In this document: positions 1-42,909 of the stretch, piece by piece
How the letters are laid out: every line of letters begins with the position of its first letter
Numbering within the stretch: position 1 is the stretch's first letter
NCBI GenBank assembly: GCA_963666515.2
Contig: OY762897.2
Span: forward strand, 2,816,001 to 2,880,000
Length of the DNA stretch: 64,000 bases
Direction: 5' to 3'
Origin: Candidatus Binatia bacterium
GTDB lineage: Bacteria > Desulfobacterota > Binatia > UBA9968 > JAJDTQ01
Made by a program: the position numbers and the translations under genes
The notes under the pieces: generated by a model
What the model saw: only the letters and a program-made list of their open reading frames with translations
What the model was told of the DNA's origin: nothing
The model's database searches: none

Positions 1-1650
1 GTGCCCTCCACCGCGGTTCCGTCCGTGAAATCCGGCGTCACCGTCAGACCGCCCTGCACCGCCGCGGACAGCGTCACCGTGAACGTCATGCTCGCGCCTT
101 CGGTGGCGCCGGCGTCGTTCACCGTCACGGTCGCGCCGTCGTCGTTGTTGATCGTGCCCGTGCCCGTGTCGGTGGCCGTGATCCCGCTCGGCGCGTTCGA
201 CACACTCAGGCTCACCGTGAAGGTCTCGTTGGCTTCAATCACATCGTCTTCGGTGGTCGAGACCGTAAAGCTCTGGGTCTCGTTGGCCGTGCCGGTGAAC
301 GTCAGCGCGGCCGTGTTCTCGTCGTAGTCCGTGCCCTCGACGGCGGTTCCGTCCGTGAAACCCGGCGTCACCGTCAGCCCGCCCTGCACCGCCGCGGACA
401 GCGTCACCGTGAACGTCATGCTCGCGCCTTCGGTGGCACTGGCGTCGTTCACCGTCACGGTCGCGCCGTCGTCGTTGTTGATCGTGCCCGTGCCCGTGTC
501 GGTGGCCGTGATCCCGTTCGGCGCGTTCGACACACTCAGGCTCACCGTGAAGGTCTCGTTGGCTTCAATCACCGCGTCTTCGGTAGTCGAGACCGTAAAG
601 CTCTGGGTCTCGTTGGCCGTGCCGGTGAACGTCAGCGCGGCCGTGTTCTCGTCGTAGTCCGTGCCCTCGACGGCGGTTCCGTCCGTGAAACCCGGCGTCA
701 CCGTCAGCCCGCCCTGCACCGCCGTGTCCAGCGTGACGGTGAAGGAGATGTTGTCGCCCTCGTCGGCGTTGGCATCGGCGATGGTCACCGTCGCGCTGTC
801 GTCGTTGTTGATCGTGCCCGTGCCCGTGTCGGTGGATGTCACGCCGGAGGGCGCGTCGGAGACCGTCAGGCCCACCGTGAAGGTCTCGTTGGCTTCAGTC
901 ACATCGTCTTCGGTGGTCGAGACCGTGAAGCTCCGGGTCTCGTTGGCCGTGCCGGTGAACGTCAGCGTGGCCGTGTTCGTCGTGTAATCGGCGTCCGCGG
1001 TGGTCACGTTGGTATAGCTCGGCGTCACCTTCAGGCCGCCTTGCACCGCCTTGCCCAGCGTCACCGTGAAGGTCATGCTGCTGCCTTCGGACGCGCTGGC
1101 GTCGTTCACCGTCACCGTCGCGCCGTCGTCGTTGTTGATCGTGCCCGTGCCCGTGTCGGTGGCCGTGACCCCGCTCGGCGCGTTCGACACACTCAGGCCC
1201 ACCGTGAAGGTCTCGTTGGCTTCAATCACCGCGTCTTCGGTGGTCGAGACCGTGAAGCTCTGGGTCTCGTTGGCCGTGCCGGTGAACGTCAGCGCGGCCG
1301 TGTTCTCGTCGTAGTCCGTGCCCTCGACGGCGGTTCCGTCCGTGAAATCCGGCGTCACCGTCAGCCCGCCCTGCACCGCCGTGTCCAGCGTGACGGTGAA
1401 GGAGATGCCGTCGCCCTCGTCGGCGTTGGCATCGGCGATGGTCACCGTCGCGCTGTCGTCGTTGTTGATCGTGCCCGTGCCCGTGTCGGTGGATGTCACG
1501 CCGGAGGGCGCGTCGGAGACGCTCAACCCCACGGTGAAGGTCTCGGTGGCTTCAACCACTTCGTCGTCAACGGTCGATACCGTGAAGGTATGGGTCTCGT
1601 TGGCCGTGCCGGTGAAGGTCAGCGCCGCCGTGTTCGCCGTGTAATCGGCG
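1..1650 (-). repeat. ~330-bp near-identical Calx-beta coding repeats
   Basis: Units start near 1, 331, 661, 991 and 1318; more divergent units continue to ~5100. Confidence 0.85.
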
Positions 1651-30798: not shown

Positions 30799-31809
30799 CT
30801 ACGCGCCGGGCGCGTCCGCGCCGGCGGCGGCCAGCCGCTGCAACGCGCGCGTGACGTAGACGCGGGTCATGCGTTTCCGATACCAGTAGTCCATGTCGGC
30901 GTTGTCCAGCGGATGGGACACGCGCATGGCCAGTTCCGCGGCCTCCTCAATGGAAGGGGCGTCCACGGGCTTGCCGCACAGCACCCCGGGCGCGTCCTCC
31001 ACCACCTTGGGCGCCGACGCCACCGCGGTGAGGACGACCTTGGCGCCCTCGCAGGCCCCGGACGCGCCGATCCGCAGCGCCGCGGCCACCCCCAGCACGG
31101 GGAAGTCGAAGGAGCCCCGGCGGCGCAGCTTGAGGTAGACGTTGCGCCAGCCGAAGGAGGCCTCCGGGATCCATACGCCCTGGAGCAACTCCGCGGGCCG
31201 TTTGGTGAGGTAGTCGATGCCGTCGTCGCGGTACAGGGTGTCCAGCGGGACCCGGCGGCTGCCCTCCGCGCTCACCAGGACGGCCTCGGCCCCCAGGCTG
31301 CTGAGCACCGGCGCGGTGTCCGACGAGCAGATGGCCAGGCAGACCCGGCTCTTGGGCGCCACCAGGCAGATGTCGCCGTCCTTCTTGAGGCAGAAGCCCA
31401 CGGCTTGGCGCCAGAAGAACGACTGGTCGTAGTAGTTGCAGCGGGTGTCCACGAACAGGTTGCCGCCGATGGTGCCGGCGTTGCGGAGCTGGAGCGTCGA
31501 GACCAGTCCGGCCGCGTCGGACAGCGCGGGGAAGGCCCGGCGCACCGTCTCGTGGCCGGCCACCGCGCTCAGGGTCTCGCCGGCGCCGATCCACAGCCCG
31601 CGGCCCTGCTCCCGGCGGATGCCCCGGTGCTCCTCGACACGGCCCAGCGACACCAGGTAGCGCGGCGTGAACTGCCCCCGCTTCATCTTGGGATAGACGT
31701 CGGTGCCGCCGGCCACGGCCATGGCCTCCGGACCCAATTCCCCCAGCACCCTCGACGCCTCCGCCAGGGTGCGGGGCCTGACATAGGTGAAATCCGGCAG
31801 TCGCAGCAT
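30799..31809 (-). CDS. hcrB: 4-hydroxybenzoyl-CoA reductase beta-like FAD/[4Fe-4S] subunit
   Basis: AGGTD and RNAGTIGGN FAD motifs; C-x15-C-x7-C-x8-C insert typical of HcrB. Confidence 0.8.
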   Translation of the reverse strand: MLRLPDFTYVRPRTLAEASRVLGELGPEAMAVAGGTDVYPKMKRGQFTPRYLVSLGRVEEHRGIRREQGRGLWIGAGETLSAVAGHETVRRAFPALSDAAGLVSTLQLRNAGTIGGNLFVDTRCNYYDQSFFWRQAVGFCLKKDGDICLVAPKSRVCLAICSSDTAPVLSSLGAEAVLVSAEGSRRVPLDTLYRDDGIDYLTKRPAELLQGVWIPEASFGWRNVYLKLRRRGSFDFPVLGVAAALRIGASGACEGAKVVLTAVASAPKVVEDAPGVLCGKPVDAPSIEEAAELAMRVSHPLDNADMDYWYRKRMTRVYVTRALQRLAAAGADAPGA

Positions 31810-31837
31810 CAATTCGTCTCGTAACGAGGAATCGAAC

Positions 31838-31941
31838 CGTCCTTCGACTTCGCGACGCTTCGCGTCGCTACGCTCAGGACGAACGGAGAAAGACTATCAC
31901 AACCGTTCGTCCTGAGCGTAGCGTAGCGAAGTCGAAGGACG
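31838..31941. repeat. Branched palindromic REP/RPE-like element
   Basis: Outer IR cgtccttcgacttcgc / gcgaagtcgaaggacg; inner IR gctacgctcaggacgaacgg / ccgttcgtcctgagcgtagc; side hairpin gcgacgc-ttc-gcgtcgc. Confidence 0.8.
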
Positions 31942-31945
31942 CCGC

Positions 31946-34327
31946 CTAGCTCTTCTGCGGCACCTCGACCCCTTCGCCGGGAGCCCAGCGGATGGGCGTG
32001 GGGAACTCGAAGTCCGGCACCGTGGGCTCCTTGAGCCGCTGGTCCAGCGCCCGCAGGATCTTGTCCGGGGTGACCGGTATCTCGTGGATGCGCACGCCCA
32101 CGGCGTCGTACACCGCGTTGGACACCGCGGGGATGACCGGCAGCAACGGGCCCTGGCCGGCCTCCTTGGCGCCGAAGGGACCCTCGGGGTCATCGGTCTC
32201 CACCAGGATGGTCTCGATGGGCGGCGTCTCCAGCGTGGTGGGGCTCTTGTATTCGAGGATGGAGGGTATCTTGTGCACGCCCGACTTGCGGAACACCTGT
32301 TCCTCCATCAGCACCTCGCCCAGGGCCATGTACACGCTCCCCTCCACCTGCCCCTGGACCCACAACGGGTTGAAGGCGCGGCCGCAGTCGTGGGCGATCC
32401 ACACCTTGTCGATGCGGATTTCGCCGGTGTCGGGGTCGCAGTGCAACTCCACCACCGCGGCGGAGTAGCTGTAGGCCGGGGTGGGTCCGACGCCGGCGCC
32501 CTTGTAGTCTCCCGGATGGCGGGGCGGCCGGTAGCTGCCGGTGGCTCCCAGCGTGCCGAAGCGGGTCTCCGCCCGCTCGACGCACTCGGCGAAGGCCAGG
32601 CCCCGGTCCGGCAGGCTGCGGCTGCGCACCTGCCCTTCCTCCATCTCCAGGTCGTCGTCGGGCACCTCCAGGACTTCCGAGGCCACCTCGAACAGCCGCT
32701 CCTTGAGGTTGCCGCAGGCCTGGATGGCGGCGTTGCCGGTCATGACCGTGACCCGGCTCGAATAGCTGCCCAGGTCCACCGGCGTGAGGTCGGTGTCCGC
32801 GGTCACCACCCGCACGTCCTCGGGCCGGAGCCCCAGTTCCTCCGCCACCGCGAAGGCCAGGATGGAATCGGAGCCCTGGCCGATCTCGGTGGAGCCGCAG
32901 AAGACGGTGACGCCGCCGCCCCGGTCGGCGCGGAGCTGGACCCCCGAGTGGGGCATGTCGTTCCAGTAGATGGGCAGGCCGGCGCCGCTGATGTAGGAGC
33001 TGGCGGCGAAGCCGACGCCGTGCCCCGGCGGCAACCGGCGATGCTTCTCCTTCCAGCCGGAGGCCGCGGCCACCTTCTCGATGCATTCCCGGAGCCCGAT
33101 GGTGCTGACCCGGAGGCCGTTGACCGTGACCGTGTCGGGCTCCACCACCTGCCTGAGCCGCATGTCCACCGGGTCGAGGCCGAGCTTGTCGGCGATCTCG
33201 TCGAGCTGCACCTCCATGGCGAACCGGGGCTGGGGGGTGCCGTGGCCGCGCTTGGGGCCGCAGGGAGGCTTGTTGGTGAACACCCGCACGCCCTCGAACT
33301 TGTAGGCGGGCAGGTCGTAGGTCACGGTCTGCAGCGCGCCGGTGTAGTAGACGGTGGCCAGGCCGTAGCTGCTGTAGCCGCCGCCGTCGAGGAAGGAACG
33401 GAACCACATGGCCTTGAGGGTGCCGTCGCGCTTGACCCCGGTGCGCATCCACATCTTTACCGGGTGCCGCCCCCGGTGCACGTAGAACGACTCCTCCCGG
33501 TTGAGGGTGATCTTCACCGGCCGGCCGGTGATCATGGCCAGCTTGGCCACCGCGATCTCGTGGGAGAACGGGTCGCTCTTGCCGCCGAAGCCGCCCCCCA
33601 CCGGGGTGGCGACGACCCGGATGTGCCCCATGGGCAGGTCCAGGACCCTGGACAGGGCGCGGTGCACGTAGTGGGGCGTCTGGGTGGACGACCACAGCGT
33701 GAGCTTGCCGTCCGGCGTATAGGTCGCCAGCGCGCAGTACTGCTCCATGGGCAGGTGTGTGTTGCCCTGGAAGAAGTACGTCCCCTCGAATACCTCGTCC
33801 GCCTCCTCGAAGCCGGCGTCCACCTCGCCGAACTCGAAGGAGACCGCCTTCTGGATGTTGGCCCTGCGGTTCCAGGTGTGGATGCGGTGGTCCTCTGCTT
33901 CCAGGGCGCCCTCGATGGACAGGATGGGGTCGAGCACCTGGTAGTCGACGTCGATGAGCCGCAACGCCTCCTCGGCCGCGTCCTCGCTGACCGCCGCCAC
34001 CGCGGCCACCGGGTCGCCGACGTAGCGCACCTTGTCCACCGCCAGCGCCTCCTCGTCCTGGGTGGAGGGCATGATGCCGAACTTGGTGGGAACGTCCGCG
34101 CCGGTGATGACGGCGAGGACGCCCGGAAGCTCCAGCGCCCTCCGCATCGAGACGTCGTGAATCAGCGCGTGGGGATGCGGGCTCCGCAGCAGCCGGCAGA
34201 ACAGCATGCGCGGCAGCACCATGTCGTCCGCGTAGCGCGTGTCGCCGGCACACTTGGCCGGACCGTCGATGCGCGGCAGAGGCTTGCCGATGACCGAGAA
34301 CCCGTTCTTCTTCCCGTTCTTGCTCAT
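31946..34327 (-). CDS. hcrA: Xanthine-oxidase-family molybdopterin subunit, HcrA-like
   Basis: Start at MSKNG (ATG 34327); GGGFGGK, EIGQG, GSYSSRVT, GQVEG and GPFGAKEAGQG motifs. Confidence 0.75.
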   Translation of the reverse strand: MSKNGKKNGFSVIGKPLPRIDGPAKCAGDTRYADDMVLPRMLFCRLLRSPHPHALIHDVSMRRALELPGVLAVITGADVPTKFGIMPSTQDEEALAVDKVRYVGDPVAAVAAVSEDAAEEALRLIDVDYQVLDPILSIEGALEAEDHRIHTWNRRANIQKAVSFEFGEVDAGFEEADEVFEGTYFFQGNTHLPMEQYCALATYTPDGKLTLWSSTQTPHYVHRALSRVLDLPMGHIRVVATPVGGGFGGKSDPFSHEIAVAKLAMITGRPVKITLNREESFYVHRGRHPVKMWMRTGVKRDGTLKAMWFRSFLDGGGYSSYGLATVYYTGALQTVTYDLPAYKFEGVRVFTNKPPCGPKRGHGTPQPRFAMEVQLDEIADKLGLDPVDMRLRQVVEPDTVTVNGLRVSTIGLRECIEKVAAASGWKEKHRRLPPGHGVGFAASSYISGAGLPIYWNDMPHSGVQLRADRGGGVTVFCGSTEIGQGSDSILAFAVAEELGLRPEDVRVVTADTDLTPVDLGSYSSRVTVMTGNAAIQACGNLKERLFEVASEVLEVPDDDLEMEEGQVRSRSLPDRGLAFAECVERAETRFGTLGATGSYRPPRHPGDYKGAGVGPTPAYSYSAAVVELHCDPDTGEIRIDKVWIAHDCGRAFNPLWVQGQVEGSVYMALGEVLMEEQVFRKSGVHKIPSILEYKSPTTLETPPIETILVETDDPEGPFGAKEAGQGPLLPVIPAVSNAVYDAVGVRIHEIPVTPDKILRALDQRLKEPTVPDFEFPTPIRWAPGEGVEVPQKS

Positions 34328-34830
34328 GTCGGCTGCGACCCATTCATTTCGGTAACGGCTTGCTCCACCGCCTCGATGATCTTGGTATAGCCGGTGCAGC
34401 GGCACAGGTTCCCCGACAGCGCCTCCTCGATGTCCGCCCGGGCCGGGTCCGGCTGCTTGTCCAGCAGCGCCTTGGCCGCCAGCAGGATGCCGGGGATGCA
34501 GTAGCCGCACTGGGCGGCGCTCAGGTCCGAGAACGCCCGCTGCAAGGGATGCGGCCGGCCTCCTTGCGCCAACCCCTCGACGGTGGTGATCTCCGGGCCC
34601 TCGGCCTCCACGGCCAGCATCAGGCACGAGTAGACGGGCTCGCCGTCCACCAGCACCGTGCAGGTGCCGCACTCGCCCAGCTCGCAGCCGTGCTTGGTGC
34701 CGGTGAGGCCCATCTCTTCCCGAAGCACCTCCAGCAGGCTGTGGGTGACGTGGCCCGCCACCTCGTGCTCCTCGCCGTTGACCCGCAGGCGCAGCAGCCG
34801 CTTGCCGGTGATGGTCTCGCTTTGGGACAT
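34324..34830 (-). CDS. hcrC: 2x[2Fe-2S] subunit, HcrC/CoxS-like
   Basis: GCELGECGTC, QCGYC and NLCRCTGY motifs; ATG 34830 chosen. Confidence 0.8.
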   Translation of the reverse strand: MSQSETITGKRLLRLRVNGEEHEVAGHVTHSLLEVLREEMGLTGTKHGCELGECGTCTVLVDGEPVYSCLMLAVEAEGPEITTVEGLAQGGRPHPLQRAFSDLSAAQCGYCIPGILLAAKALLDKQPDPARADIEEALSGNLCRCTGYTKIIEAVEQAVTEMNGSQPT

Positions 34831-34838
34831 CGCGTCGC

Positions 34839-36155
34839 TCAATTCCGAAAGAACCTCCTGGCCTTCAGCTCGAAACGGGGCAGGGTCTCCGGCGCCGCCA
34901 CCTCCACCACCGGGCGGATGTGCAGGTTGTCCCGGACGGCCTCGGTCACGGCCTCCCGGAGCCCCGCCGGCGCCCCGGCCGCGACCGGCTCCACCGTGAT
35001 CTTCAACTCGGCCATCCCATCGGTCTGCACCACGTCCACGCGGAATTCCTCCACCTCGGGGAACCGCCGGACGATGCCTTCCACCGCGCTCGGGAAGACG
35101 TTCACTCCCCGTACCACCACCATATCATCCACGCGGCCCAGGACGCCCCCCTGCAATACCAGCGAGTCGCGCCCGCAAGCGCAGGGGCCGCGCCGGGGCT
35201 CCACCAGGTCGCCGGTGCGGTAGCGGATGACCGGGCTCCCGACCCGGCCCAGGTTCGTCAGCACCAGCTCCCCCCGTGCGCCCTCCGGCAGCGGTCCGCC
35301 GCTACCCACGTCCGCCTGCTCCTCAGGGCCGGTGACCTCGCCCCGGACACCACGGTCCGGCAGCGGGCGCCCGCTCTCCACGTCCACCACCTCGGCGATG
35401 AACTCGTCCTCGTTGACGTGGACTCCTTCCGCCAGGGCGTCGCAGGCGAAGCCGAAGGCGCCCACCTCGGTGGCGCCGGTGTGGTCGAAGCAGCGGGCGC
35501 CCCACGCCTCCTCGATGCGCTGCTTCGTCGACGCGATGCTGGCGCCGGGCTCACCCGCGTGGACCGTTGTCCGCACGGCCGAATCCCGCGCCAGGTCCAT
35601 GCCCGCGCGGCGCGCCTCCGCCGCCATGTGCAACGCGTACGTGGGGGTGCACACCAGCACGGTGGCGCCGTACTCCACGAGGCTCTTGAGCCGCTGCTGC
35701 GTGGACTGCCCGCCGCCGGAGACGGCCAAGGCGCCCACCTTGCGGGCGCCTTCCCAGCCGCTCCAGAACCCTATGAACGGCCCGAAGGAGAACGCGAAGA
35801 AGATCCGGTCCGCGGGCCCCACCCCGGCCGCTTCCAGCACCGCTTTCCAGCACTCGCCCCACCAGTCCCAAGACGCCTCGGTATCGAGCCAGTACATGGG
35901 CCGCCCGGTGGTCCCCGAGGTCTGGTGCACGCGCACGTAGCGCTCCGGCGGATAGGTCAGGTCGCTGCCGAACGGCGGGCGCCCGAGCTGGTCGTCCACC
36001 AGCTCCTGCTTGGTGGTGAACGGCAGCTCCGAGAACCGTTGCAGCCCCTCCAGGGGCCGTTCGACGCACCCTTCGAGCTTGCGGCGATAGAACGCGTTGG
36101 TGCGGAGCACCTCGTCGAGCATGCCGTTGAGCCTGTCCAACCGGGCGCGTTCCAT
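34839..36155 (-). CDS. Phenylacetate-CoA ligase (PaaK)-family acyl-CoA ligase
   Basis: LPFTTKQEL, TSGTTG, GATE, RYRTGD and GRVDDM motifs; start ATG 36155 avoids overlap with the upstream gene. Confidence 0.85.
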   Translation of the reverse strand: MERARLDRLNGMLDEVLRTNAFYRRKLEGCVERPLEGLQRFSELPFTTKQELVDDQLGRPPFGSDLTYPPERYVRVHQTSGTTGRPMYWLDTEASWDWWGECWKAVLEAAGVGPADRIFFAFSFGPFIGFWSGWEGARKVGALAVSGGGQSTQQRLKSLVEYGATVLVCTPTYALHMAAEARRAGMDLARDSAVRTTVHAGEPGASIASTKQRIEEAWGARCFDHTGATEVGAFGFACDALAEGVHVNEDEFIAEVVDVESGRPLPDRGVRGEVTGPEEQADVGSGGPLPEGARGELVLTNLGRVGSPVIRYRTGDLVEPRRGPCACGRDSLVLQGGVLGRVDDMVVVRGVNVFPSAVEGIVRRFPEVEEFRVDVVQTDGMAELKITVEPVAAGAPAGLREAVTEAVRDNLHIRPVVEVAAPETLPRFELKARRFFRN

Positions 36156-36186
36156 CGTCCCGTCAACTTTGACACGGAACGCGGAT

Positions 36187-37101
36187 TCAGCCAAGGCGCA
36201 GTCCGGGACGGAGACCCGCGGCGCCGGCGTATTCGGCGGCGGCGACCTTGACGCGGGAATCATGCGCCCTCACCCGCTGCACCCGCACGCTCGCCCCGCC
36301 CGCGGCCACCGCCATGCCGGCGTCCGAGAGGTCGAGGATCTCTCCGGGAGCGCCCTTGTCCGCGGCCAACCGGCTGCCGTAGAGCTTGAGCCGGTTGCCG
36401 CCGACGGTGGTCCAGGCGCCGGGCTGCGGGTCGGTGCCGCAGATGAGGCGGTGCACCTCCTCGGCCGGCCTGGACCAGTCCACCTCGGCGTCCGCCTCGC
36501 CGCACCAGCTCTCGTAGGTTGCCCGGCCGTGGTCCTGCGCGATGCGCGGCGCGGCGCCGGCGCGCACCAGTTCCACCGCCTCGGCCATCGCATCGACGCC
36601 CATGGGGAACAGCTTGCCGAAGTAGAGGCTGCCCACGGTATCGTCCTCGGCGATTTCCACCTCCTTCTGCAGCAGGATCGGACCCTCGTCCAGGCCCTCG
36701 TCCGGCCAGAAGATGGTGAGCCCGGTCTTCTCGTCTCCCATGATGCGCGCCCAGTTGATGGAGCTGGGGCCGCGGTGCAGCGGCAACAGCGAGGGATGGT
36801 ACTGGATCGTGCCCAGCGCGGGCGCGTCCAGCACCCGCCGCGGCACCAGCAGCGTCACGTAGGCCATGACGCACAGGTCGGGTTGGAACGACTCTATCAG
36901 GGCCAGCGCTTCGTCCGTCTTCCAGGTCGCCGGCTGGCGCACCGGCAGCCCGCGCTCCAGCGCCGCTTCCTTGAGCGGGTCCACGGGCCGGCCCTCGTGG
37001 TCCTGCGGACAGAAGACGCCCACCACCTCGTCCGGACCCGACTCCAGCCGTTCCAACACGGCCTTGCCGAACGCCTGTTGCCCGTGGATCAGAATACGCA
37101 T
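36187..37101 (-). CDS. Formyltransferase/10-formyl-THF hydrolase-like protein
   Basis: YHPSLLPLHRGPSSINW and DEGLDEG motifs; ATG 37101 with AGGAG. Confidence 0.85.
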   Translation of the reverse strand: MRILIHGQQAFGKAVLERLESGPDEVVGVFCPQDHEGRPVDPLKEAALERGLPVRQPATWKTDEALALIESFQPDLCVMAYVTLLVPRRVLDAPALGTIQYHPSLLPLHRGPSSINWARIMGDEKTGLTIFWPDEGLDEGPILLQKEVEIAEDDTVGSLYFGKLFPMGVDAMAEAVELVRAGAAPRIAQDHGRATYESWCGEADAEVDWSRPAEEVHRLICGTDPQPGAWTTVGGNRLKLYGSRLAADKGAPGEILDLSDAGMAVAAGGASVRVQRVRAHDSRVKVAAAEYAGAAGLRPGLRLG

Positions 37102-37379
37102 CGGTTCTCCTGTAATACTTGCTTGACACACAGGCCGTCCTTTCCTAGTCTCAATCCTGAACACTCCCGCAGAAGGTCCGTGCGTCGGGCCTTCCGCCAA
37201 ATACAACAGCCCGATCTGGCAATGGGTAGCTCCCGGCGCTTGGGTGAATAAGCGGAAACATCAAACACCTTCTGTGGGATGTGTTCAATGGCCCGGCAAT
37301 CCCGCCGCGCCGAAACACAACGCCGGACCACAAGCCGGCCGCCCCTTCACGTGTCCCTGACCGAGAAAGGAGACGCTGA

Positions 37380-37661
37380 ATGGCTCAGGGAGACGACATG
37401 GCTCAGGAGACGATCAGCCCGGAGCAAGAATCGCGGCAATTCCCCGTAATCGTTCATCTCGCAGGTTGGGAGGTGGTGGCAAGGGAAGAAAACCCGGGAC
37501 GATCCACCGACCATCTCCTCGTACTGGAGTATGATCCCGACCGGATTGTCCGGCATCCGATCGTACGCATTGGAAACCGGACGGCTTTCGCCGCCGATCG
37601 TGAGACTCTCCTGGAAATGGCCCGCCACATCTTGCGCACGCTGGATCCCGGGGCTCGTTGA
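37380..37661 (+). CDS. Small hypothetical protein
   Basis: AAGGAG RBS; alternative start at 37398; no family recognised. Confidence 0.5.
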   Translation: MAQGDDMAQETISPEQESRQFPVIVHLAGWEVVAREENPGRSTDHLLVLEYDPDRIVRHPIVRIGNRTAFAADRETLLEMARHILRTLDPGAR

Positions 37662-37686
37662 CACCATCGAACCGCTCTGGTATCGG
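37658..37686 (+). promoter_or_regulatory. Possible sigma70 promoter for the VOC-IspH-like-UbiD operon
   Basis: TTGACA-N17-TATCGG with an extended-10 TG; the -10 hexamer is imperfect. Confidence 0.3.
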
Positions 37687-37753
37687 CGTATCATGGACCG
37701 CCAAGGGTCCGTTCCGCAGGATTCCAGGCCTGACGACTTGCAGGAGGTGACCG

Positions 37754-38794
37754 ATGGACAGACATGAACCGCGCGGGGTCGTGCATTGGATCGATCATTT
37801 CATCGTGGGCACCAACGACATGGTGACCTGGGTGGACTGGGCGGTGAACGCCACCGGCATCACCCGGCGGCCGATCCGCGGCATCACCACCAAGGCGCGC
37901 AAGAAGGACGTGCCGATCATGTGCTTCCTGTGGTGGGACGGCGAGTCGTGCCGCATCGGCGCGTTCCTCCAGCCGGAGGTCTATCCGACCGCCAAGCCGC
38001 TGGGCGAGGAGCTGCCGCGGTGCGGCTTCTACATCCGGCCCGAGGACGTGGACCGACACCTCAAGCGGCTCGAACGCCACGACATCCCCCACACCGACCC
38101 GGTACGGACCGCGGACGGCGGCGACGAGGGCACGGTGATCTACTTCGCCGACCCCGACGGCAACCAGTTCGAGTTCTGGGCGCCGGAGCACATGCCCGAA
38201 GGCGCCATGGAGATATGCACCTCGGAAGGCGTCGGCCGCATCAGCCACGCGGTGTACGGCTCCCGGGACCTCGGCCGCACCGCCGACTTCTTCGGCAGGT
38301 ATTGCGCCCTGGAACCCGAGGTGAACCCCAACGTCGCCGAGGGCAACCTGGTGCTGCGGCTTCAAGCCGGCGGCCGGCTCATCTACAAGCTCACGGAGCA
38401 GGTGGACGAACGCGTGGCCGGGCACGGCCCCTGGTGGGACATGCACACGGCGCTGACGGTGCGGGCGGAGGAGTTCATGCCCAACTACCGGCGCATGTGG
38501 GAGACCCTGCCCGAGGAAGCCATGGCCAAGGAAGAGGACACCCTGACCCTGGAGGAAGAGGACGCGCTGCCGGCGCGCACCGGCCTGCACCGGAGCCCGG
38601 TGGGCTACCGCTGGAAGGCCATGTTCGAGCGCGGCGACGAGTTCTACGACTGGGACGGCCACGCCTTCCACTTCTTCGGCGGCAAGCCCGTGAAGGACGA
38701 CGGCTCGCTGGCCCTCTACACCATCGTAGAGCAGGAAGACTACCTCACCGACGTCGCCGTCGAGGCCGAGAAGGCCCAGGCCGCCCAAGGCTGA
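37754..38794 (+). CDS. Two-module VOC (glyoxalase/extradiol dioxygenase fold) protein
   Basis: IDHF, YFADPDGNQFEF, ISHAV, HTAL and YDWDGHAFHF motifs; AGGAGG RBS. Confidence 0.75.
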   Translation: MDRHEPRGVVHWIDHFIVGTNDMVTWVDWAVNATGITRRPIRGITTKARKKDVPIMCFLWWDGESCRIGAFLQPEVYPTAKPLGEELPRCGFYIRPEDVDRHLKRLERHDIPHTDPVRTADGGDEGTVIYFADPDGNQFEFWAPEHMPEGAMEICTSEGVGRISHAVYGSRDLGRTADFFGRYCALEPEVNPNVAEGNLVLRLQAGGRLIYKLTEQVDERVAGHGPWWDMHTALTVRAEEFMPNYRRMWETLPEEAMAKEEDTLTLEEEDALPARTGLHRSPVGYRWKAMFERGDEFYDWDGHAFHFFGGKPVKDDGSLALYTIVEQEDYLTDVAVEAEKAQAAQG

Positions 38795-38819
38795 CGGCTG
38801 TTTCAGCGAGGAGGTTTTC

Positions 38820-39704
38820 ATGGAAGTGGTCAAGGTCGACTTCAACAACACCAAGGGGATCCCGCCGTCGGGTCTGTGCGTGGGCGTGCACCGCGCCGGG
38901 GCCATGCACCAGAAGATGGTGCAGAAATACGGCAACGGCATCGCCGTCTGGTCCCTGCGGCCCGAGAACGACTTCATCGCCTTCAAGTCGCTGGAAGACG
39001 AGGAGGGCATCCGCTCCACCAACGACATGGACTCCATCAAGGACGAGAAGCTCATCTACGGCGTGCGCGGCGCGCCGCCGGAGATCCGCAGGCAGGCGAA
39101 GGAGCAGGGCCTGGAGCTTCTGGCCGACGCCACCTGCCCGTTCGTGGTGCAGCAGGAGGAAGCCGAGTTGGAGCTGCTGGACCAGGGCTGCCACCTGGTG
39201 ATCCTGAGCAGCCGCACGCACCACGGCATCCCGCGCCTCATGGGCATCGCCAGGGAGAAGGAGCGGGAGGTGTTCATCGTCGAGACCGAAGAGGACGTGG
39301 CCGACATCCGCCTCACCCGCTTCGAGCCCGTGGGCGTCATCGTCCAGACCACCTTCTGGATGGAGAGCTACACCAAGATCATGACCCGCATCCTGGAGCG
39401 CTTCGCCAACGTGCGCATCCGCAACACCGCCTGCATCGACTCGTTGCAGCGGCTGCCCAAGGTGGAAGAGCTGGCGCGTGACGTGGAGGCGGTGGTCATC
39501 TTCGGCTGGACCGAGGGCATGACCAACCGCATGGAGGAAGTGGCGAAGGCCTTCAACGACAACGTCCACCGCATCGAGAAGATCGAGGACCTGGACCGCT
39601 CCTGGTTCACGGGCAAGTCCCGTGTCGGCATCGTCGGCGCCAACGAGACCACCGACGAGCTGGTGGACGAGGCGGTGGAGCGCATCAAGTCCATGGCGGC
39701 GTGA
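38820..39704 (+). CDS. IspH/LytB-fold Fe-S protein with non-canonical active site
   Basis: GLCVGVHRA, DATCPFV, QTT, NTAC...QR and VGIVGA motifs; His/Glu/SSN motifs replaced. Confidence 0.8.
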   Translation: MEVVKVDFNNTKGIPPSGLCVGVHRAGAMHQKMVQKYGNGIAVWSLRPENDFIAFKSLEDEEGIRSTNDMDSIKDEKLIYGVRGAPPEIRRQAKEQGLELLADATCPFVVQQEEAELELLDQGCHLVILSSRTHHGIPRLMGIAREKEREVFIVETEEDVADIRLTRFEPVGVIVQTTFWMESYTKIMTRILERFANVRIRNTACIDSLQRLPKVEELARDVEAVVIFGWTEGMTNRMEEVAKAFNDNVHRIEKIEDLDRSWFTGKSRVGIVGANETTDELVDEAVERIKSMAA

Positions 39705-39719
39705 GAGGATCGAACCCAC

Positions 39720-41186
39720 ATGTCCGAAACCGCTACGATGGAAGCCAGGCTGCCTTATCACGACCTCCGCGAATGGATGGCCCGGGCCGAGGCCCTGGGC
39801 GAGTTGCGCACCGTCACGGGCGCGAGCTGGGAGGAAGACATCGGGCTGGCCGCGGACGCGGTGATCCGGGAAGACGACGGGCCGGCGGTGCTCTTCGACG
39901 AGGTGCCCGGCTGTCCCAAGGGGTTCCGTGTCCTGATCAACACGTTCGCCGGCAAGCGCCGCAACATGACGCTGGGGTTTCCCGAACACCTCACCAAGCA
40001 GGAGCTGAGCCAGGCCTTCTTCGACCACTACATCAAGGTGCAGCGGCGGCTGCCGCACGTGGTGGTGGACGACGGGCCGGTGTTCGAGAACGTCCTCACC
40101 GGCGACGACATCGACGTCATGAAGTTTCCCACCCCCAAGTGGCACGCGGACGACGGCGGACGCTACATCGGCACCGGCTGCTTCTGCGTGACCATCGACC
40201 CGGAGGAGCGCTGGATCAACGTCGGCACCTACCGGGCCATGGTGCAGGACCGGAAGTCGGTGAGCCTGCTGTTCGTGCCCGGCAAGCACGCCTACATGCA
40301 CCGCAAGAAGTACTTCGACAAGGGCCAGCCCATGCCGGTGGCCCTGGTGGTGGGCAGCGACCCCATGTCGTTCTTCGTGGGGGGCACGGAGTTCCCCTAC
40401 GGCGTGTGCGAGTTCGACGTCGTCGGCGGGCTGCGCGGCGCCCCGGTGGAGGTGGTGCAGGGCAAGGTCACGGGGCTGCCTTTTCCCGCCAACGCCGAGA
40501 TCGTGCTGGAAGGCTTCCTGACACAGGACAAGCGCGCGGTGGAGGGGCCGTTCGGGGAGTGGACCGGCTACTATGCCGGCGGCGCCAGCGAGCAGCCCAC
40601 CCTGGACATCCGCGCCATCTACCACCGCAACGACCCCGTCATCCTGGGGGTGCCGCCGCTGGGGGCCGGACCCGACGAGATGGCCCGCTACCGCGCCATC
40701 ATGCGCTCGGCCATGCTCAAGCAGGAGCTGGCCAACGCCGGGGTTCCGGACGTGACCCAGGTGTGGTGCCACGAGGTCGGCGCCTCGCGCCTGCTGCACG
40801 GCATCGGCATCAGGCAGCGCTATCCCGGCCACGCCCGGCAGGCGGGCACGCTGGCCTCCACCTGCGGATCGGTGGTGTACGGCTGCAAGTTCGTCATCGT
40901 GGTGGACGACGACATCGACGTCTCCAACCTCGACCAGTTGATCTGGGCCATGCTCACCCGGTGCGACCCGGAAACCTCCATCGAGATCCTGCGCAAGATG
41001 CGCACCTCCCCCGCCGACCCGCGGGTCACGCCCGAGCAGCGCAGGACCCACGACATCACCAACTCCCGCGTCATCGTCGACGCCTGCCGTCCCTTCGAGT
41101 GGTTCGACAAGTATCCCAAGGTCAACGCGCCCAGCCCCGAGGTGGTCCGCAAGGCCCATGAGAAATTCGGCTACCTGCTGGAGTGA
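39720..41186 (+). CDS. UbiD-family prFMN-dependent (de)carboxylase
   Basis: DLREW, DGGRYI, NVGTYR, EGPFGEWTGYY, VDDDID and WAMLTR motifs. Confidence 0.92.
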   Translation: MSETATMEARLPYHDLREWMARAEALGELRTVTGASWEEDIGLAADAVIREDDGPAVLFDEVPGCPKGFRVLINTFAGKRRNMTLGFPEHLTKQELSQAFFDHYIKVQRRLPHVVVDDGPVFENVLTGDDIDVMKFPTPKWHADDGGRYIGTGCFCVTIDPEERWINVGTYRAMVQDRKSVSLLFVPGKHAYMHRKKYFDKGQPMPVALVVGSDPMSFFVGGTEFPYGVCEFDVVGGLRGAPVEVVQGKVTGLPFPANAEIVLEGFLTQDKRAVEGPFGEWTGYYAGGASEQPTLDIRAIYHRNDPVILGVPPLGAGPDEMARYRAIMRSAMLKQELANAGVPDVTQVWCHEVGASRLLHGIGIRQRYPGHARQAGTLASTCGSVVYGCKFVIVVDDDIDVSNLDQLIWAMLTRCDPETSIEILRKMRTSPADPRVTPEQRRTHDITNSRVIVDACRPFEWFDKYPKVNAPSPEVVRKAHEKFGYLLE

Positions 41187-41231
41187 GCGCGGCCGCCAGC
41201 GCCCCGTCCGGTTCATTGGGACACTGGACGA

Positions 41232-41780
41232 GTGACTCCCGGCGCCACACGTTTTGCCCAGGCCGCGCTGCTGGGGGACTCCGACGCCTCCTACGACAAC
41301 TTGGCGCTGGCCGAGGACGCCGGCGAGATGCTCGCGCGGCGCGGCGTCACCCTGATCACCGGCGGCCGGGGCGGAGTCATGGAAGCGGCCTGCCGGGGCG
41401 CCGCGCGGGCCGGCGGCCTCACCGTGGGGATCACCCCCGGCACCGACACGAGAGCGGCCAACCCCTGGTGCGACATCGTCCTGCCGACCGGCCTGGGCCA
41501 TGCGCGGAACGCCCTGACGGCTCTGGCCGGCGACTTCGTCGTGGCGGTGGGCGGCGGCGCCGGCACCCTCTCCGAGCTGTGCTTCGCGTGGATGCACGGA
41601 CGGCCCATCTACGTGTTGCAGGGATCGGGCGGTTGGTCCGGCCGCCTCGCCGGCGGCGCGCTGGACCACCGCGCCTCATCGGTGATCGTCGACTGTGACG
41701 GCGTCGACGCGCTGGAGCGCGAAGTGGTGCGCTTCTGCGCCGAGCGGGACCTGAGGATACGGGAGGCGGACACGGAATGA
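41232..41780 (+). CDS. SLOG/LOG-family (TIGR00725-like) nucleotide-binding protein
   Basis: ITGGRGGVMEAA, GLGHARN and GGGAGTLSE motifs. Confidence 0.85.
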   Translation: MTPGATRFAQAALLGDSDASYDNLALAEDAGEMLARRGVTLITGGRGGVMEAACRGAARAGGLTVGITPGTDTRAANPWCDIVLPTGLGHARNALTALAGDFVVAVGGGAGTLSELCFAWMHGRPIYVLQGSGGWSGRLAGGALDHRASSVIVDCDGVDALEREVVRFCAERDLRIREADTE

Positions 41781-41835
41781 CTTTGCCCCGCCCGTGCGTG
41801 TCCTCGCCAGAATTGGCCGGACACGACGCTGGTTC

Positions 41836-42909
41836 ATGAACGCGCGCTCACAGGCATGGTTCTGGCTCCTGGTGCTGGCCGCGGCGCTGCTGCTGGTCTG
41901 GCTGCTGAGCGCCATCCTGTTCCCCTTCGCGCTGGGCATCGCCCTTGCCTACGCCCTGGACCCGGCCGCCACGTGGCTGGAACGGCGCGGCTGCTCGCGC
42001 ACGGCCGCCACCGTGCTCATCGGCGCCGGCTTCTTCGGCGCCGGCCTGTCGGCGCTGCTGCTGCTCATCCCGCCGGTGGCGGAGCAGGCCGCGGACCTGC
42101 TCCAGCGGCTCCCGGCGCTGGTCTCCCGCCTCGTCCAGGCCATCGGGCCGCTGCTCGCCCGGGCGCTGAACGCCATCGGCGCCGACCAGCCGGAGGGACT
42201 GCACCAGACCATGGCCGGGAACCTTCAGCGGCTGACGAAGCTCGGACTGGGGCTGCTCCAGGGCCTGGTGAGCGGCGGCGCCGCGGTCGTCAACGTCGCC
42301 TCCCTTCTCACCATCACGCCCCTCACCACATTCTACATGCTCCGGCAGTGGCCCGGCATCGTGTCCACCGTCGACGGCTGGCTGCCGCGGGACCACGCCG
42401 GCACGGTGCGCGGCATCATGCGCGACATCGACGTGGTGCTCAAGGGTTTCCTCCACGGCTCGGTCATCATCTGCGCCGCGCTGGGGGCCTTCTACGGCGT
42501 GGCCCTCTCGCTGGCGGGACTGGACTACGGCCTCACCATCGGCCTCGTCACCGGCGCCCTCTCCTTCATCCCTTACGTGGGGACGATCTTCGGGCTGGTA
42601 TCGTCCGTCGGCGTCGCCTGCCTCCAGTTCTGGCCGGAATGGGTCCGCATCGCCCTGGTCCTGGGGATCTTCCTGGTGGGGCAGTTGCTGGCCGACTACG
42701 TGCTGACGCCGCGGGTCATGGGCAGCCGCATCGCCGTCCATCCCTTGTGGCTGATCTTCGGCCTGTTCGCCGGCGGCGCTCTCTTCGGCTTCGTCGGCAT
42801 GCTGCTCTCCGTCCCCGCCACCGCCGCCGCCGGCGTCCTCGCCCGCTTCTTCATCGGGCGCTACAAGGAATCGTCGCTGTACCGCGGCGCCGGCGGTGGA
42901 ACCCCGTAG
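41836..42909 (+). CDS. AI-2E/PerM-family transporter
   Basis: Multi-TM protein; FIPYVG, LTPRVMG, VHPLW and GFVGMLLSVP motifs. Confidence 0.85.
   Translation: MNARSQAWFWLLVLAAALLLVWLLSAILFPFALGIALAYALDPAATWLERRGCSRTAATVLIGAGFFGAGLSALLLLIPPVAEQAADLLQRLPALVSRLVQAIGPLLARALNAIGADQPEGLHQTMAGNLQRLTKLGLGLLQGLVSGGAAVVNVASLLTITPLTTFYMLRQWPGIVSTVDGWLPRDHAGTVRGIMRDIDVVLKGFLHGSVIICAALGAFYGVALSLAGLDYGLTIGLVTGALSFIPYVGTIFGLVSSVGVACLQFWPEWVRIALVLGIFLVGQLLADYVLTPRVMGSRIAVHPLWLIFGLFAGGALFGFVGMLLSVPATAAAGVLARFFIGRYKESSLYRGAGGGTP

What the first reader, a model, noticed from the sequence alone, without database searches (positions are those of the whole stretch)
37754..41780. Candidate new enzyme system: rewired IspH-fold Fe-S protein in an operon with UbiD, VOC and SLOG proteins
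Seen: four co-oriented genes with 25, 15 and 45-nt gaps. The IspH-like protein keeps all three cluster cysteines (GLCVG, DATCP, TAC) and QTT. It replaces the substrate motifs: IVHN to RPEN, SAHG to GVRG, HPE to HHG, SSN to EGM and GAS to GAN. Known: E. coli IspH uses C12/C96/C197 for a site-differentiated [4Fe-4S] cluster, H41/H74/H124/S225-N227/S269 for diphosphate binding and E126 for protonation. UbiD needs prenylated FMN, and an Fe-S dehydratase plus UbiD pair exists in the archaeal mevalonate pathway. Inference: not an HMBPP reductase. It may be an Fe-S (de)hydratase or reductase for a non-diphosphate (perhaps carboxylate) substrate feeding UbiD, or a prFMN supply or maturation factor. 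I know of no described IspH paralog in this context.
Basis: partly seen in the sequence, partly recalled or inferred. Interest (0 to 1): 0.85.

Follow-up and report, generated by a model that had tools for sequence, protein, structure and literature searches.

The report
Rewired IspH paralogue beside a UbiD decarboxylase
This bacterium has, besides its normal IspH enzyme, a second iron-sulfur IspH-like enzyme with a rebuilt substrate pocket that probably reduces an unknown compound and here sits next to a decarboxylase.

Summary
The four genes and nearly all the motif changes are real. The 294-aa protein has the IspH fold and all three cluster cysteines. It fails every NCBIfam IspH cut-off and has lost E126 and five of eight diphosphate-pocket residues. 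The genome has an intact canonical ispH and ispG elsewhere, so this is a neofunctionalised paralogue, not the HMBPP reductase.

The replacement residues are invariant or nearly so in 139 sequences, and dN/dS is 0.05-0.13. The family was found in one order of Candidatus Binatia and in a few other MAGs.

Outside this genus, 94 of 100 loci have a small Fer2-type iron-sulfur protein immediately downstream. In this genome that protein is encoded 1.4 Mb away.

UbiD and SLOG follow the paralogue in 28 of 28 loci of this genus. The same UbiD orthogroup follows it in one distant lineage. It is not adjacent in 112 other loci, and presence/absence of the two genes is uncoupled. VOC linkage is loose (15 of 28).

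Best reading: a ferredoxin-driven Fe-S reductase for a non-diphosphate substrate, coupled only facultatively to a PhdA-like UbiD. A prFMN-supply role is unlikely. The substrate is unknown.

The parts
38820..39704 (+). IspH-like paralogue ('IspHL', 294 aa). It has the IspH fold and keeps the three cluster cysteines plus Q176-T177-T178 and H134. It has lost E126 and five diphosphate-pocket residues.
   Evidence: ORF. PF02401 scores 145.2 bits. TIGR00216 scores 122 against a cut-off of 187.85. Residue mapping. Conservation in 139 sequences. AlphaFold2 model with pLDDT 92.1. The top 11 Foldseek PDB hits are all IspH. GGAGG lies 7 nt before the ATG.
39720..41186 (+). UbiD-family (prFMN-type) decarboxylase of 488 aa. 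Its nearest solved relative is PhdA, the phenazine-1-carboxylate decarboxylase.
   Evidence: Three UbiD domains. TIGR00148 is over its cut-off, while the phenylphosphate-carboxylase and VdcC models fall below theirs. PDB 7pda_A scores 372 bits, E 3e-110, and is identified as M. fortuitum PhdA in passages of PMC10850782. Orthogroup clade supported 100/100.
41232..41780 (+). TIGR00725 / SLOG cluster-4 protein of 182 aa. It follows UbiD in every locus of this genus. Its nearest solved relatives are Moco carrier proteins.
   Evidence: PF18306 scores 138.6 bits and TIGR00725 scores 122.3 against 106.9. PDB hits 6y01, 2iz5 and 1rcu. 6Y01 appears in the listing of the Rippkaea Moco-carrier paper. Present in 28 of 28 genus loci and in 0 of 114 others.
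37754..38794 (+). VOC-superfamily protein of 346 aa. It is only loosely linked to the three genes downstream.
   Evidence: PF00903 scores 23.8 bits over residues 92-141 only. The nearest Atlas clusters are Glyoxalase-family, commonest in Binatota. Found within the 8-kb flank in 15 of 28 genus loci and at variable distance.
30799..37206 (-). Context only, not shown to belong to the finding. A divergent gene set: formyltransferase-like, PaaK-like acyl-CoA ligase, and a three-subunit molybdenum enzyme most like 4-hydroxybenzoyl-CoA reductase.
   Evidence: Pfam annotation. NCBIfam: TIGR03194 scores 871 against 994.55, TIGR03195 scores 257 against 404.55, and TIGR03193 scores 180 against 257.8. Present within the flank in only part of the genus loci.

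Best explanation
The 294-aa gene encodes a neofunctionalised paralogue of IspH. It is a [4Fe-4S] enzyme that keeps the IspH fold, the three cysteines that leave one iron free for substrate, T167 and H124. Its diphosphate pocket and the E126 acid are replaced by an Arg/Glu/His set that is invariant or nearly so: R47, D/E49, R83, H135, G136, R139, E232, M234, N275 and E276.

It is not the organism's HMBPP reductase. Its evolutionarily constant partner is a small Fer2-type iron-sulfur protein with a C-x4-C-x2-D...C motif. I infer that this partner delivers electrons.

Most likely (inferred) it carries out an IspH-type two-electron reduction, namely reductive removal of an iron-bound hydroxyl or a related C-O cleavage. 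The substrate would be anchored by carboxylate and/or ammonium groups rather than by diphosphate.

In this genus the gene lies directly upstream of a PhdA-like UbiD decarboxylase and a SLOG protein. The same UbiD orthogroup lies beside the paralogue and its ferredoxin in one distant lineage. In those lineages the two enzymes therefore probably act in one pathway on an unsaturated or (hetero)aromatic carboxylic acid. This coupling is facultative, not a fixed system.

Shown here: fold, residue changes, conservation, paralogue status, partner and distribution. Inferred: electron flow, reaction type and pathway link. Unknown: the substrate.
For: - Paralogue status. A canonical ispH scores 319.4 bits and the window copy 121.5 bits. 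The canonical ORF carries all motifs. ispG is present. Five other genomes that carry the paralogue each also have a canonical ispH; four are over the cut-off and one is split into two pieces.
- Fold. Model pLDDT is 92.1. The top 11 PDB matches are all IspH, with TMq 0.81-0.85 to the E. coli structures.
- Lost residues are catalytically important. Passages of PMC8837944 list H41, H74, H124, S225, S269, T168, N227 and Q166 as the diphosphate pocket. The same passages say E126Q, E126D and E126A are almost inactive.
- Conservation. C20, C106, C205, R47, P48, R83, H134, H135, G136, R139, Q176-T178 and N275 are invariant in 139 of 139 sequences. E232 and M234 are kept in 138 of 139. Median dN/dS is 0.125, 0.076 and 0.049.
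- Separate clade. The paralogues split from canonical IspH with 100/99 support.
- Ferredoxin partner. It starts within 150 bp downstream in 94 of 100 non-genus loci that have enough flank, and in 2 of 2 distant loci. It is 65-78% identical across clades. An orthologue (67% identity) lies in this genome at C1:4253470. In locus L067 a ferredoxin-reductase gene lies divergently upstream.
- UbiD link. UbiD follows the paralogue in 28 of 28 genus loci. The UbiDs of L061 and L067, which also follow it, fall in the window UbiD's orthogroup with 100/100 support.
- RNA-library contigs from 3 studies bridge the IspH-like/UbiD junction.
Against: - No activity, cluster or substrate has been measured.
- The loss of E126 could mean loss of IspH-type chemistry rather than a new substrate.
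- In 112 loci at 60-87% identity the orthologous UbiD is never adjacent. The one UbiD found within a flank is a 46% paralogue 6 kb away.
- In two such genomes the UbiD orthologue sits elsewhere, with no paralogue or SLOG within 9 kb.
- Phylogenetic profiles are uncoupled. Family f100 has the paralogue in 4 of 4 genomes and the UbiD orthologue in 0 of 4. In family f2, 17 of 20 paralogue-positive genomes have the UbiD orthologue, but so do 26 of 44 paralogue-negative ones.
- The genome holds 39 UbiD genes, so a UbiD neighbour is less improbable here than in most genomes.
- In loci L006 and L016 a 383-aa minus-strand ORF separates the two genes.
- The genus loci represent one evolutionary event, not 28.
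- RNA-library contigs can contain DNA and do not prove a single transcript.
Confidence: 0.5

Rival explanations
1. The adjacency carries no shared function. The IspH-like gene and its ferredoxin form a self-contained redox module. Its position beside UbiD, SLOG and VOC in this genus is inherited synteny in a genome crowded with UbiD genes.
For: - The orthologous UbiD is adjacent in 0 of 112 loci of the sister groups.
- Presence and absence are uncoupled in both directions.
- The genome has 39 UbiD genes, and relatives have 27-71.
- An inserted ORF separates the genes in L006 and L016.
- The region upstream of the paralogue varies within the genus.
Against: - The same UbiD orthogroup (100/100 support) lies beside the paralogue in a lineage only 56-57% identical.
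- On the paralogue tree the genus clade is nested inside UbiD-less clades (95/91 support). The adjacency therefore arose twice or survived selectively.
- The intergenic gap is 15 nt and contains a Shine-Dalgarno-like site.
Confidence: 0.3
2. It is a prFMN supply or maturation factor. For example, it could make dimethylallyl monophosphate from a hydroxylated precursor for UbiX, or repair or mature prFMN for UbiD enzymes.
For: - The family is found in an order whose genomes carry dozens of UbiD genes.
- The dimethylallyl chemistry of IspH fits such a role in principle. This point is inference only.
Against: - No UbiX-like gene was found in any of 142 loci.
- The UbiX-sized flavoprotein of this genome lies about 630 kb away.
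- Five genomes of the order without the paralogue have 61, 64, 63, 40 and 46 UbiD-family hits.
- Three acidic residues (D/E49, E232, E276) now line the former phosphate pocket, which fits a phosphate ester poorly.
- Neighbours in other lineages are catabolic or detoxification genes.
Confidence: 0.07
3. It is a non-reductive or non-catalytic Fe-S protein. It could be a hydratase or dehydratase using the free iron as a Lewis acid, or a sensor or regulator.
For: - The proton donor E126 is lost.
- IspH is known to have side activities; the only evidence seen here is the title and abstract listing of PMC4864966.
Against: - A dedicated, highly conserved Fer2-type partner and a ferredoxin reductase in L067 point to electron supply.
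- The pocket residues are under strict conservation.
Confidence: 0.1
4. It is a second, divergent HMBPP reductase isozyme.
For: - The PF02401 match is full-length.
- The cluster cysteines, T167 and H124 are kept.
Against: - It falls below all 7 NCBIfam IspH cut-offs.
- E126 and five pocket residues are replaced, and E126 mutants are almost inactive.
- A canonical ispH is present in all 6 genomes checked.
Confidence: 0.03

Closest known systems
IspH / LytB, HMBPP reductase (PF02401, TIGR00216)
   Same: It has the same fold. It has three cysteines for a site-differentiated [4Fe-4S] cluster. The equivalents of Q166, T167, T168 and H124 are kept. It probably depends on ferredoxin.
   Different: It is below every equivalog cut-off. 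E126 becomes Gly, H41 becomes Asp/Glu, H74 becomes Arg, S225 becomes Glu, N227 becomes Met and S269 becomes Glu. It is an extra copy beside a canonical ispH. It is never found next to MEP-pathway genes in the loci examined.
PhdA, phenazine-1-carboxylic acid decarboxylase of Mycobacterium fortuitum (PDB 7PDA), for the UbiD gene
   Same: It is the best solved relative, at 372 bits over residues 13-470. The shared GGRYIGT and EGPFGEWTGY stretches are conserved. That these stretches are catalytic is my recollection, not a tool result.
   Different: No substrate has been tested. The gene belongs to one of 39 UbiD lineages in this genome. It falls below the cut-offs for the phenylphosphate-carboxylase and VdcC models.
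Archaeal modified mevalonate pathway: Fe-S dehydratase followed by a UbiD-type decarboxylase
   Same: An Fe-S enzyme and a UbiD-family enzyme could act on successive intermediates.
   Different: The archaeal dehydratase is aconitase-type, not IspH-fold (recalled). In the present case the pairing is facultative. Nothing isoprenoid-related was seen in the neighbourhoods.
Moco carrier proteins (PDB 6Y01, 2IZ5), for the SLOG gene
   Same: They are the two best solved relatives, at E 2e-22 and 6e-22. A molybdenum enzyme is encoded within 8 kb.
   Different: Cofactor binding has not been tested. The gene follows UbiD in 28 of 28 genus loci, whereas the Mo-enzyme genes are within the flank in only some.

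Membership tests
IspH/LytB HMBPP reductase | LytB fold and full-length PF02401 match | tested here: met
   PF02401 scores 145.2 bits over residues 16-290. Model pLDDT is 92.1. The top 11 Foldseek PDB hits are all IspH.
IspH/LytB HMBPP reductase | Three cysteines (C12, C96, C197) for the [4Fe-4S] cluster | tested here: met
   C20, C106 and C205 align with them. All three are invariant in 139 of 139 family sequences.
IspH/LytB HMBPP reductase | Score above the curated equivalog cut-off | tested here: not met
   All 7 NCBIfam IspH models fall below their cut-offs. TIGR00216 scores 122 against 187.85.
IspH/LytB HMBPP reductase | E126 proton donor | tested here: not met
   It aligns with G136, which is invariant in 139 of 139 sequences. 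E126 mutants are almost inactive according to passages of PMC8837944.
IspH/LytB HMBPP reductase | Diphosphate pocket: H41, H74, H124, S225, N227, S269, Q166, T168 | tested here: not met
   Five of the eight residues are replaced: H41 to D/E49, H74 to R83, S225 to E232, N227 to M234 and S269 to E276. H124, Q166 and T168 are kept.
IspH/LytB HMBPP reductase | Serves as the genome's MEP-pathway terminal enzyme | tested here: not met
   An intact canonical ispH lies at C1:3467745-3468575. ispG is also present.
IspH/LytB HMBPP reductase | HMBPP reductase activity, or complementation of an ispH mutant | not testable with these tools
   This needs an experiment.
UbiD-family prFMN decarboxylase (gene 39720-41186) | UbiD N-terminal, core and C-terminal domains, and the subfamily cut-off | tested here: met
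   PF20695, PF01977 and PF20696 all match. TIGR00148 scores 266.5 against 244.85.
UbiD-family prFMN decarboxylase (gene 39720-41186) | A flavin prenyltransferase (UbiX) available in the genome | tested here: inconclusive
   A PF02441 flavoprotein hit of 129 bits lies in a 199-aa frame at C1:2221343. It was not scored against a UbiX-specific model.
TIGR00725 / SLOG cluster 4 (gene 41232-41780) | Score above the curated cut-off | tested here: met
   TIGR00725 scores 122.3 against 106.9, and PF18306 scores 138.6 bits. The family's function is unknown; the model type is 'hypoth_equivalog'.
VOC superfamily (gene 37754-38794) | Paired beta-alpha-beta-beta-beta modules with metal ligands | tested here: inconclusive
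   There is one partial PF00903 match of 23.8 bits over residues 92-141. Atlas neighbours are Glyoxalase-family clusters. The metal ligands were not examined.
Plant-type [2Fe-2S] ferredoxin (the partner protein, outside the window) | Four cysteine ligands in a C-x4-C-x2-C...C pattern (pattern recalled) | tested here: not met
   PF00111 scores 34-45 bits. Only C36, C41 and C79 are invariant, and the third ligand position is an invariant Asp (D44) in 6 of 6 sequences aligned.

The most novel reading that the evidence does not exclude
The IspH-like enzyme and its Cys3Asp ferredoxin form a new class of organometallic Fe-S reductase. It would perform IspH-type deoxygenation of an allylic or benzylic alcohol on a non-isoprenoid carboxylate or zwitterionic substrate. 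In this sponge-associated Binatia genus it would feed (or be fed by) a PhdA-type prFMN decarboxylase, giving a previously unknown 'deoxygenate then decarboxylate' route.
Probability: 0.2. Interest if true: 0.8.

Novelty: new variant of a known kind. Interest (0 to 1): 0.6.

Why it matters
IspH is regarded as a single-function enzyme with rare organometallic chemistry, and it is a drug target. A conserved paralogue family with a rebuilt pocket and its own ferredoxin would show that this chemistry has been recruited for another substrate. It would also give enzymologists a second natural example to compare.

There is a practical point for annotation. [quoted passage not shown]

The side observation that these Binatia carry 27-71 UbiD-family genes per genome points to a large, unexplored (de)carboxylation metabolism.

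Tried and rejected
- The genomic contexts of the most distant family members (P0124 at 43% identity, P0130 at 38%) could not be obtained. A metagenome scan with their alignment found no relative. The second scan kept only the best 80 of 147 loci, all at 71-95% identity.
- Complex prediction on UbiD plus the paralogue returned 'no answer' with scores 0.00 and 0.00. This is no evidence either way.
- The promoter/terminator scan found 0 promoter-like sites and 3 terminator-like sites against 2.2 expected. It was uninformative.
- Rfam found no match in 36900-42100.
- The plasmid search found only canonical IspH at 29% identity or less.
- The search for longer, fused forms found none at E <= 1e-40. 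The tool itself rates this as weak evidence.
- P0085 (370 aa) looked like a possible fusion but is an internal duplication.
- The Atlas searches gave only family names.
- The phylum-level sample found only the window's own genome (1 of 301 at E <= 1e-40). That sample was too sparse, and the class-level sample replaced it.
- In the IspH tree my row for the genome's own canonical IspH was a mis-cut 184-aa fragment. Its placement should be ignored. The correct ORF was read.
- My GC3 filter did not list the SLOG ORF, and I draw nothing from that.
- In the laid RNA-library contigs the stretch 37348-37521 had no cover in any of the four runs, and 37522-37695 had cover only in X13 (1.93). No listed contig bridges VOC and the paralogue, and 171 further pieces were not shown. 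I make no claim from these gaps.
- I considered specific substrates and dropped them as untestable here. These included carboxylate analogues of HMBPP, cinnamyl-type alcohols, hydroxyproline-derived imino acids and sulfonates.
- I considered reading the SLOG protein as a Moco carrier for the nearby Mo enzyme. I keep this only as a lead.
- Supplementary files of papers were not consulted. The supplements of the IspH similarity-network paper (PMC4746011) might list small clusters that include this family.

Full report
**What is there.** Four co-oriented ORFs lie at 37754-38794, 38820-39704, 39720-41186 and 41232-41780, separated by 25, 15 and 45 nt.
- The first is a VOC-superfamily protein with one weak partial Pfam match (PF00903, 23.8 bits, residues 92-141).
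- The second is a full-length LytB/IspH-domain protein (PF02401, 145.2 bits).
- The third is a three-domain UbiD-family protein.
- The fourth is a SLOG cluster-4 / TIGR00725 protein.
- Shine-Dalgarno-like sequences precede the IspH-like and UbiD starts.
- Promoter, terminator and Rfam scans gave nothing useful.

**The IspH-like protein is a paralogue, not the HMBPP reductase.**
- It falls below the curated cut-off of all seven NCBIfam IspH models; TIGR00216 scores 122 against 187.85.
- The same genome has a canonical ispH at C1:3467745-3468575 scoring 319.4 bits.
- The ORF of that canonical copy shows every classical motif, including IVHN, SAHG, GHAGHPEVEG, QTT, SSNSN and TAGAS.
- An ispG is also present.
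- Five other genomes that carry the paralogue were checked. Four have a canonical ispH over the cut-off, and the fifth has one split into two adjacent pieces.

**Residue mapping.**
- Kept: the three cluster cysteines (C20, C106, C205), Q176-T177-T178 and H134 (the H124 equivalent).
- Changed: H41 to E49, H74 to R83, E126 to G136, S225/S226/N227 to E232/G233/M234.
- S269 aligns with E276.
- Passages of the review PMC8837944 name H41, H74, H124, S225, S269, T168, N227 and Q166 as the diphosphate pocket. They also report that E126Q, E126D and E126A are almost inactive.
- So five of eight pocket residues and the proposed proton donor are gone.
- Three acidic residues and several arginines now occupy the pocket positions.
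- An AlphaFold2 model is confident (pLDDT 92.1, pTM 0.87). Its best 11 PDB matches are all IspH.

**It is a conserved family under purifying selection.**
- A search of 1.84 billion cluster representatives found only 24 with E <= 1e-30.
- The full-length paralogue-type representatives are 73%, 43% and 38% identical to the window protein. Canonical IspHs follow at about 30%.
- I collected 144 loci: 64 from species-representative genomes and 80 from metagenomes.
- In 139 family sequences the three cysteines, R47, P48, R83, H134, H135, G136, R139, Q176-T178, N275 and T277 are invariant. E232 and M234 are kept in 138 of 139.
- Median pairwise dN/dS is 0.125 in the window's genus (403 pairs). It is 0.076 and 0.049 in two sets from the sister groups.
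- The family separates from canonical IspH with 100/99 support.
- Record titles of the closest loci name Candidatus Binatia MAGs.

| Group in the 401-genome class sample | Genomes with the paralogue |
|---|---|
| Window's genus, besides the window's own genome | 26 of 26 |
| Family f2 | 20 of 64 |
| Family f100 | 4 of 4 |
| The other 17 families | 0 of 306 |

These tallies include two genomes flagged unpublished, G635 and G645.

**The constant partner is a small iron-sulfur protein, not UbiD.** Of the 144 loci, 142 held a match covering at least half of the paralogue. Outside the window's genus the gene is followed by a 93-100-aa Fer2-family protein (PF00111).
- This protein starts within 150 bp downstream in 94 of the 100 loci at 60-87% identity that have at least 400 bp of downstream sequence.
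- It does the same in 2 of 2 loci at 56-57% identity.
- It is 65-78% identical across these clades.
- It has invariant C36, C41, D44 and C79, so an aspartate sits where plant-type ferredoxins have their third cysteine. The four-cysteine pattern is my recollection.
- In the window's genome its orthologue (67% identity) lies 1.4 Mb away at C1:4253470-4253742, downstream of a metallo-beta-lactamase-fold gene and a small VOC gene.
- In locus L067 a ferredoxin-reductase-type flavoprotein is encoded divergently upstream.
- I infer an NAD(P)H to reductase to Fer2 protein to paralogue electron chain. That fits a reductase.

**How strong is the link to UbiD, SLOG and VOC?**
- The window's genus gives 28 loci. 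That is 27 at 88% identity or more, plus L026 at 87.8%. UbiD and SLOG follow the paralogue in 28 of 28.
- VOC is within the 8-kb flank in only 15 of 28, at distances from adjacent to 7.5 kb.
- In L006 and L016 a 383-aa minus-strand ORF lies between the paralogue and UbiD.
- In the remaining 112 loci at 60-87% identity no orthologous UbiD is nearby. One 46% paralogue lies 6 kb upstream in L041.
- The two loci at 56-57% identity (L061 and L067, which are near-identical to each other) have the order TauE-family permease, paralogue, Fer2, UbiD.
- A UbiD tree places the L061 and L067 UbiDs in one 100/100 clade. That clade also holds the window UbiD, its genus orthologues and two orthologues from sister-group genomes, apart from the other paralogues included.
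- On the paralogue tree the window's genus is nested inside UbiD-less clades (95/91 support), and L061/L067 lie outside.
- The same UbiD orthogroup is therefore adjacent in two separate parts of the tree. That argues for a functional link.

Evidence against an obligate link is also substantial.
- In two sister-group genomes the UbiD orthologue (75% and 71% identity) lies elsewhere, with no paralogue or SLOG within 9 kb.
- Three other paralogue-bearing genomes have no UbiD above 49% identity.
- The class-sample profiles are uncoupled, as the table shows.

| Group in the class sample | UbiD orthologue at E <= 1e-200 |
|---|---|
| Window's genus | 26 of 26 |
| Family f2, all genomes | 43 of 64 |
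| Family f2, paralogue-positive | 17 of 20 |
| Family f2, paralogue-negative | 26 of 44 |
| Family f100 (all four carry the paralogue) | 0 of 4 |

- UbiD genes are also extremely abundant in this group, which raises the chance of accidental adjacency.
  - The window's genome has 39 PF01977 hits.
  - Five paralogue-bearing relatives have 27-71 hits to the window UbiD.
  - Five paralogue-negative relatives have 40-64 PF01977 hits.

**What the neighbours are.**
- The UbiD's nearest solved relative is PDB 7PDA (372 bits). Passages of PMC10850782 identify it as phenazine-1-carboxylic acid decarboxylase of Mycobacterium fortuitum.
- The SLOG protein's best solved relatives are 6Y01 and 2IZ5. 2IZ5 is named Moco carrier protein by its depositors, and 6Y01 occurs in the paper on the Rippkaea orientalis Moco carrier protein (search listing).
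- Divergently upstream lie a formyltransferase-like gene and a PaaK-like ligase. With them is a three-subunit molybdenum enzyme closest to, but below the cut-offs of, 4-hydroxybenzoyl-CoA reductase.
- In the sister groups the paralogue-Fer2 pair sits among varying genes. These include SsuA/NMT1-type binding proteins, ornithine-cyclodeaminase-family enzymes and a reductive-dehalogenase-like Fe-S protein. Also seen are GSTs, cupins, a nitroreductase, CMD/OsmC-type proteins, a GntR regulator and VOC proteins.
- The common theme is catabolism or detoxification of small organic, often aromatic, compounds. It is not isoprenoid or cofactor synthesis.

**Expression.**
- Contigs from four metatranscriptome libraries, mostly 85-95% alike and so from relatives, cover the VOC, paralogue and UbiD genes.
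- One 2,416-nt contig (run X19) spans 38830-41227.
- Contigs of X20 and X13 also bridge the paralogue/UbiD junction. That makes three studies.
- The tool warns that DNA can be present in such libraries, and that a contig across two genes does not show a single transcript.
- The libraries laid are labelled sponge and marine metagenomes.

**Mechanism, with odds.**
- Reasonably secure (about 0.85): this is a functional Fe-S enzyme with a function other than HMBPP reduction.
- Likely (about 0.7): the Fer2 protein is its electron donor.
- My best mechanistic guess is an IspH-type two-electron reductive C-O cleavage at the free iron. T177 and H134 would keep their roles, and H135, E232 or E276 would replace E126 as the acid.
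- The arginines and glutamates would bind a carboxylate and/or ammonium group instead of diphosphate.
- A pathway link to the PhdA-like UbiD in this genus is about even odds (0.4-0.5).
- Involvement of SLOG and VOC is weaker (about 0.25).
- A general prFMN-supply or maturation role is unlikely (about 0.07), because no UbiX is nearby, UbiD-rich genomes do without the paralogue, and the pocket is now acidic.

**Novelty.**
- Four full-text searches returned no paper that, by title or abstract start, describes an IspH paralogue with a non-HMBPP role or a UbiD or ferredoxin context.
- In the IspH similarity-network paper PMC4746011 I read passages only. It sorts 15,660 IspHs by taxon and by fusions and does not use the word 'paralog'. 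Its supplements could not be seen.
- No paper in the library combines Binatia or Binatota with UbiD.
- I rate this a new variant of a known kind. It is of real interest to Fe-S enzymologists, but its substrate is unknown and its 'system' status is only partly supported.

Noticed in passing
whole genome G000; relatives G301-G305, G291, G317, G334, G500, G553: The UbiD family is massively expanded. The window's 4.67-Mb genome has 39 PF01977 hits. Five relatives have 27-71 hits to the window UbiD, and five more have 40-64 PF01977 hits. No paper in the library combines Binatia/Binatota with UbiD.
   Followed up: partly
L036:8895-9176 and its orthologues; G000 C1:4253470-4253742: The Fer2-type partner of the paralogue has an invariant C-x4-C-x2-D...C pattern, with an Asp where a third Cys ligand is expected. 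It is 65-78% identical across clades, which is more conserved than the enzyme it accompanies.
   Followed up: partly
window 9451-29295 (+): A single open frame of 6,614 aa. It holds a 72-bp tandem array at 11187-11825 and a 318-bp array at 26100-27365. The + strand shows a strong A-over-T skew across 12-26 kb. Not annotated.
   Followed up: no
window 1-5324: Tandem repeats with periods of 330-339 bp. Frames of more than 1,750 aa are open on both strands and run off the window edge. The coding strand was not determined.
   Followed up: no
window 30799-37206 (-): A divergent gene set: formyltransferase-like, PaaK-like ligase, and a Mo/FeS/FAD enzyme closest to 4-hydroxybenzoyl-CoA reductase but below its cut-offs.
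   Followed up: partly
L006:8900-10051 and L016:9100-10251 (-): In two genus relatives a 383-aa ORF on the opposite strand sits between the paralogue and UbiD. It may be a mobile element. Not annotated.
   Followed up: no
sister-group loci, e.g. L036:9209-10156: A reductive-dehalogenase-like Fe-S protein (TIGR02486 scores 112 against 160) lies near the paralogue-Fer2 pair in 21 of 112 loci.
   Followed up: partly
G305 C9:878905-879745: In this relative the canonical ispH matches as two adjacent pieces (169.6 and 133.8 bits). This could be a frameshift or an assembly error.
   Followed up: no
window 37380-37661 (+): A 93-aa ORF lies in the 547-bp divergent intergenic region upstream of the VOC gene. 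It has no annotation, and it is not clear that it is a gene.
   Followed up: no
protein P0085: A 370-aa database relative of the paralogue contains an internal duplication of about 75 residues. It is probably an assembly artefact rather than a fusion.
   Followed up: yes
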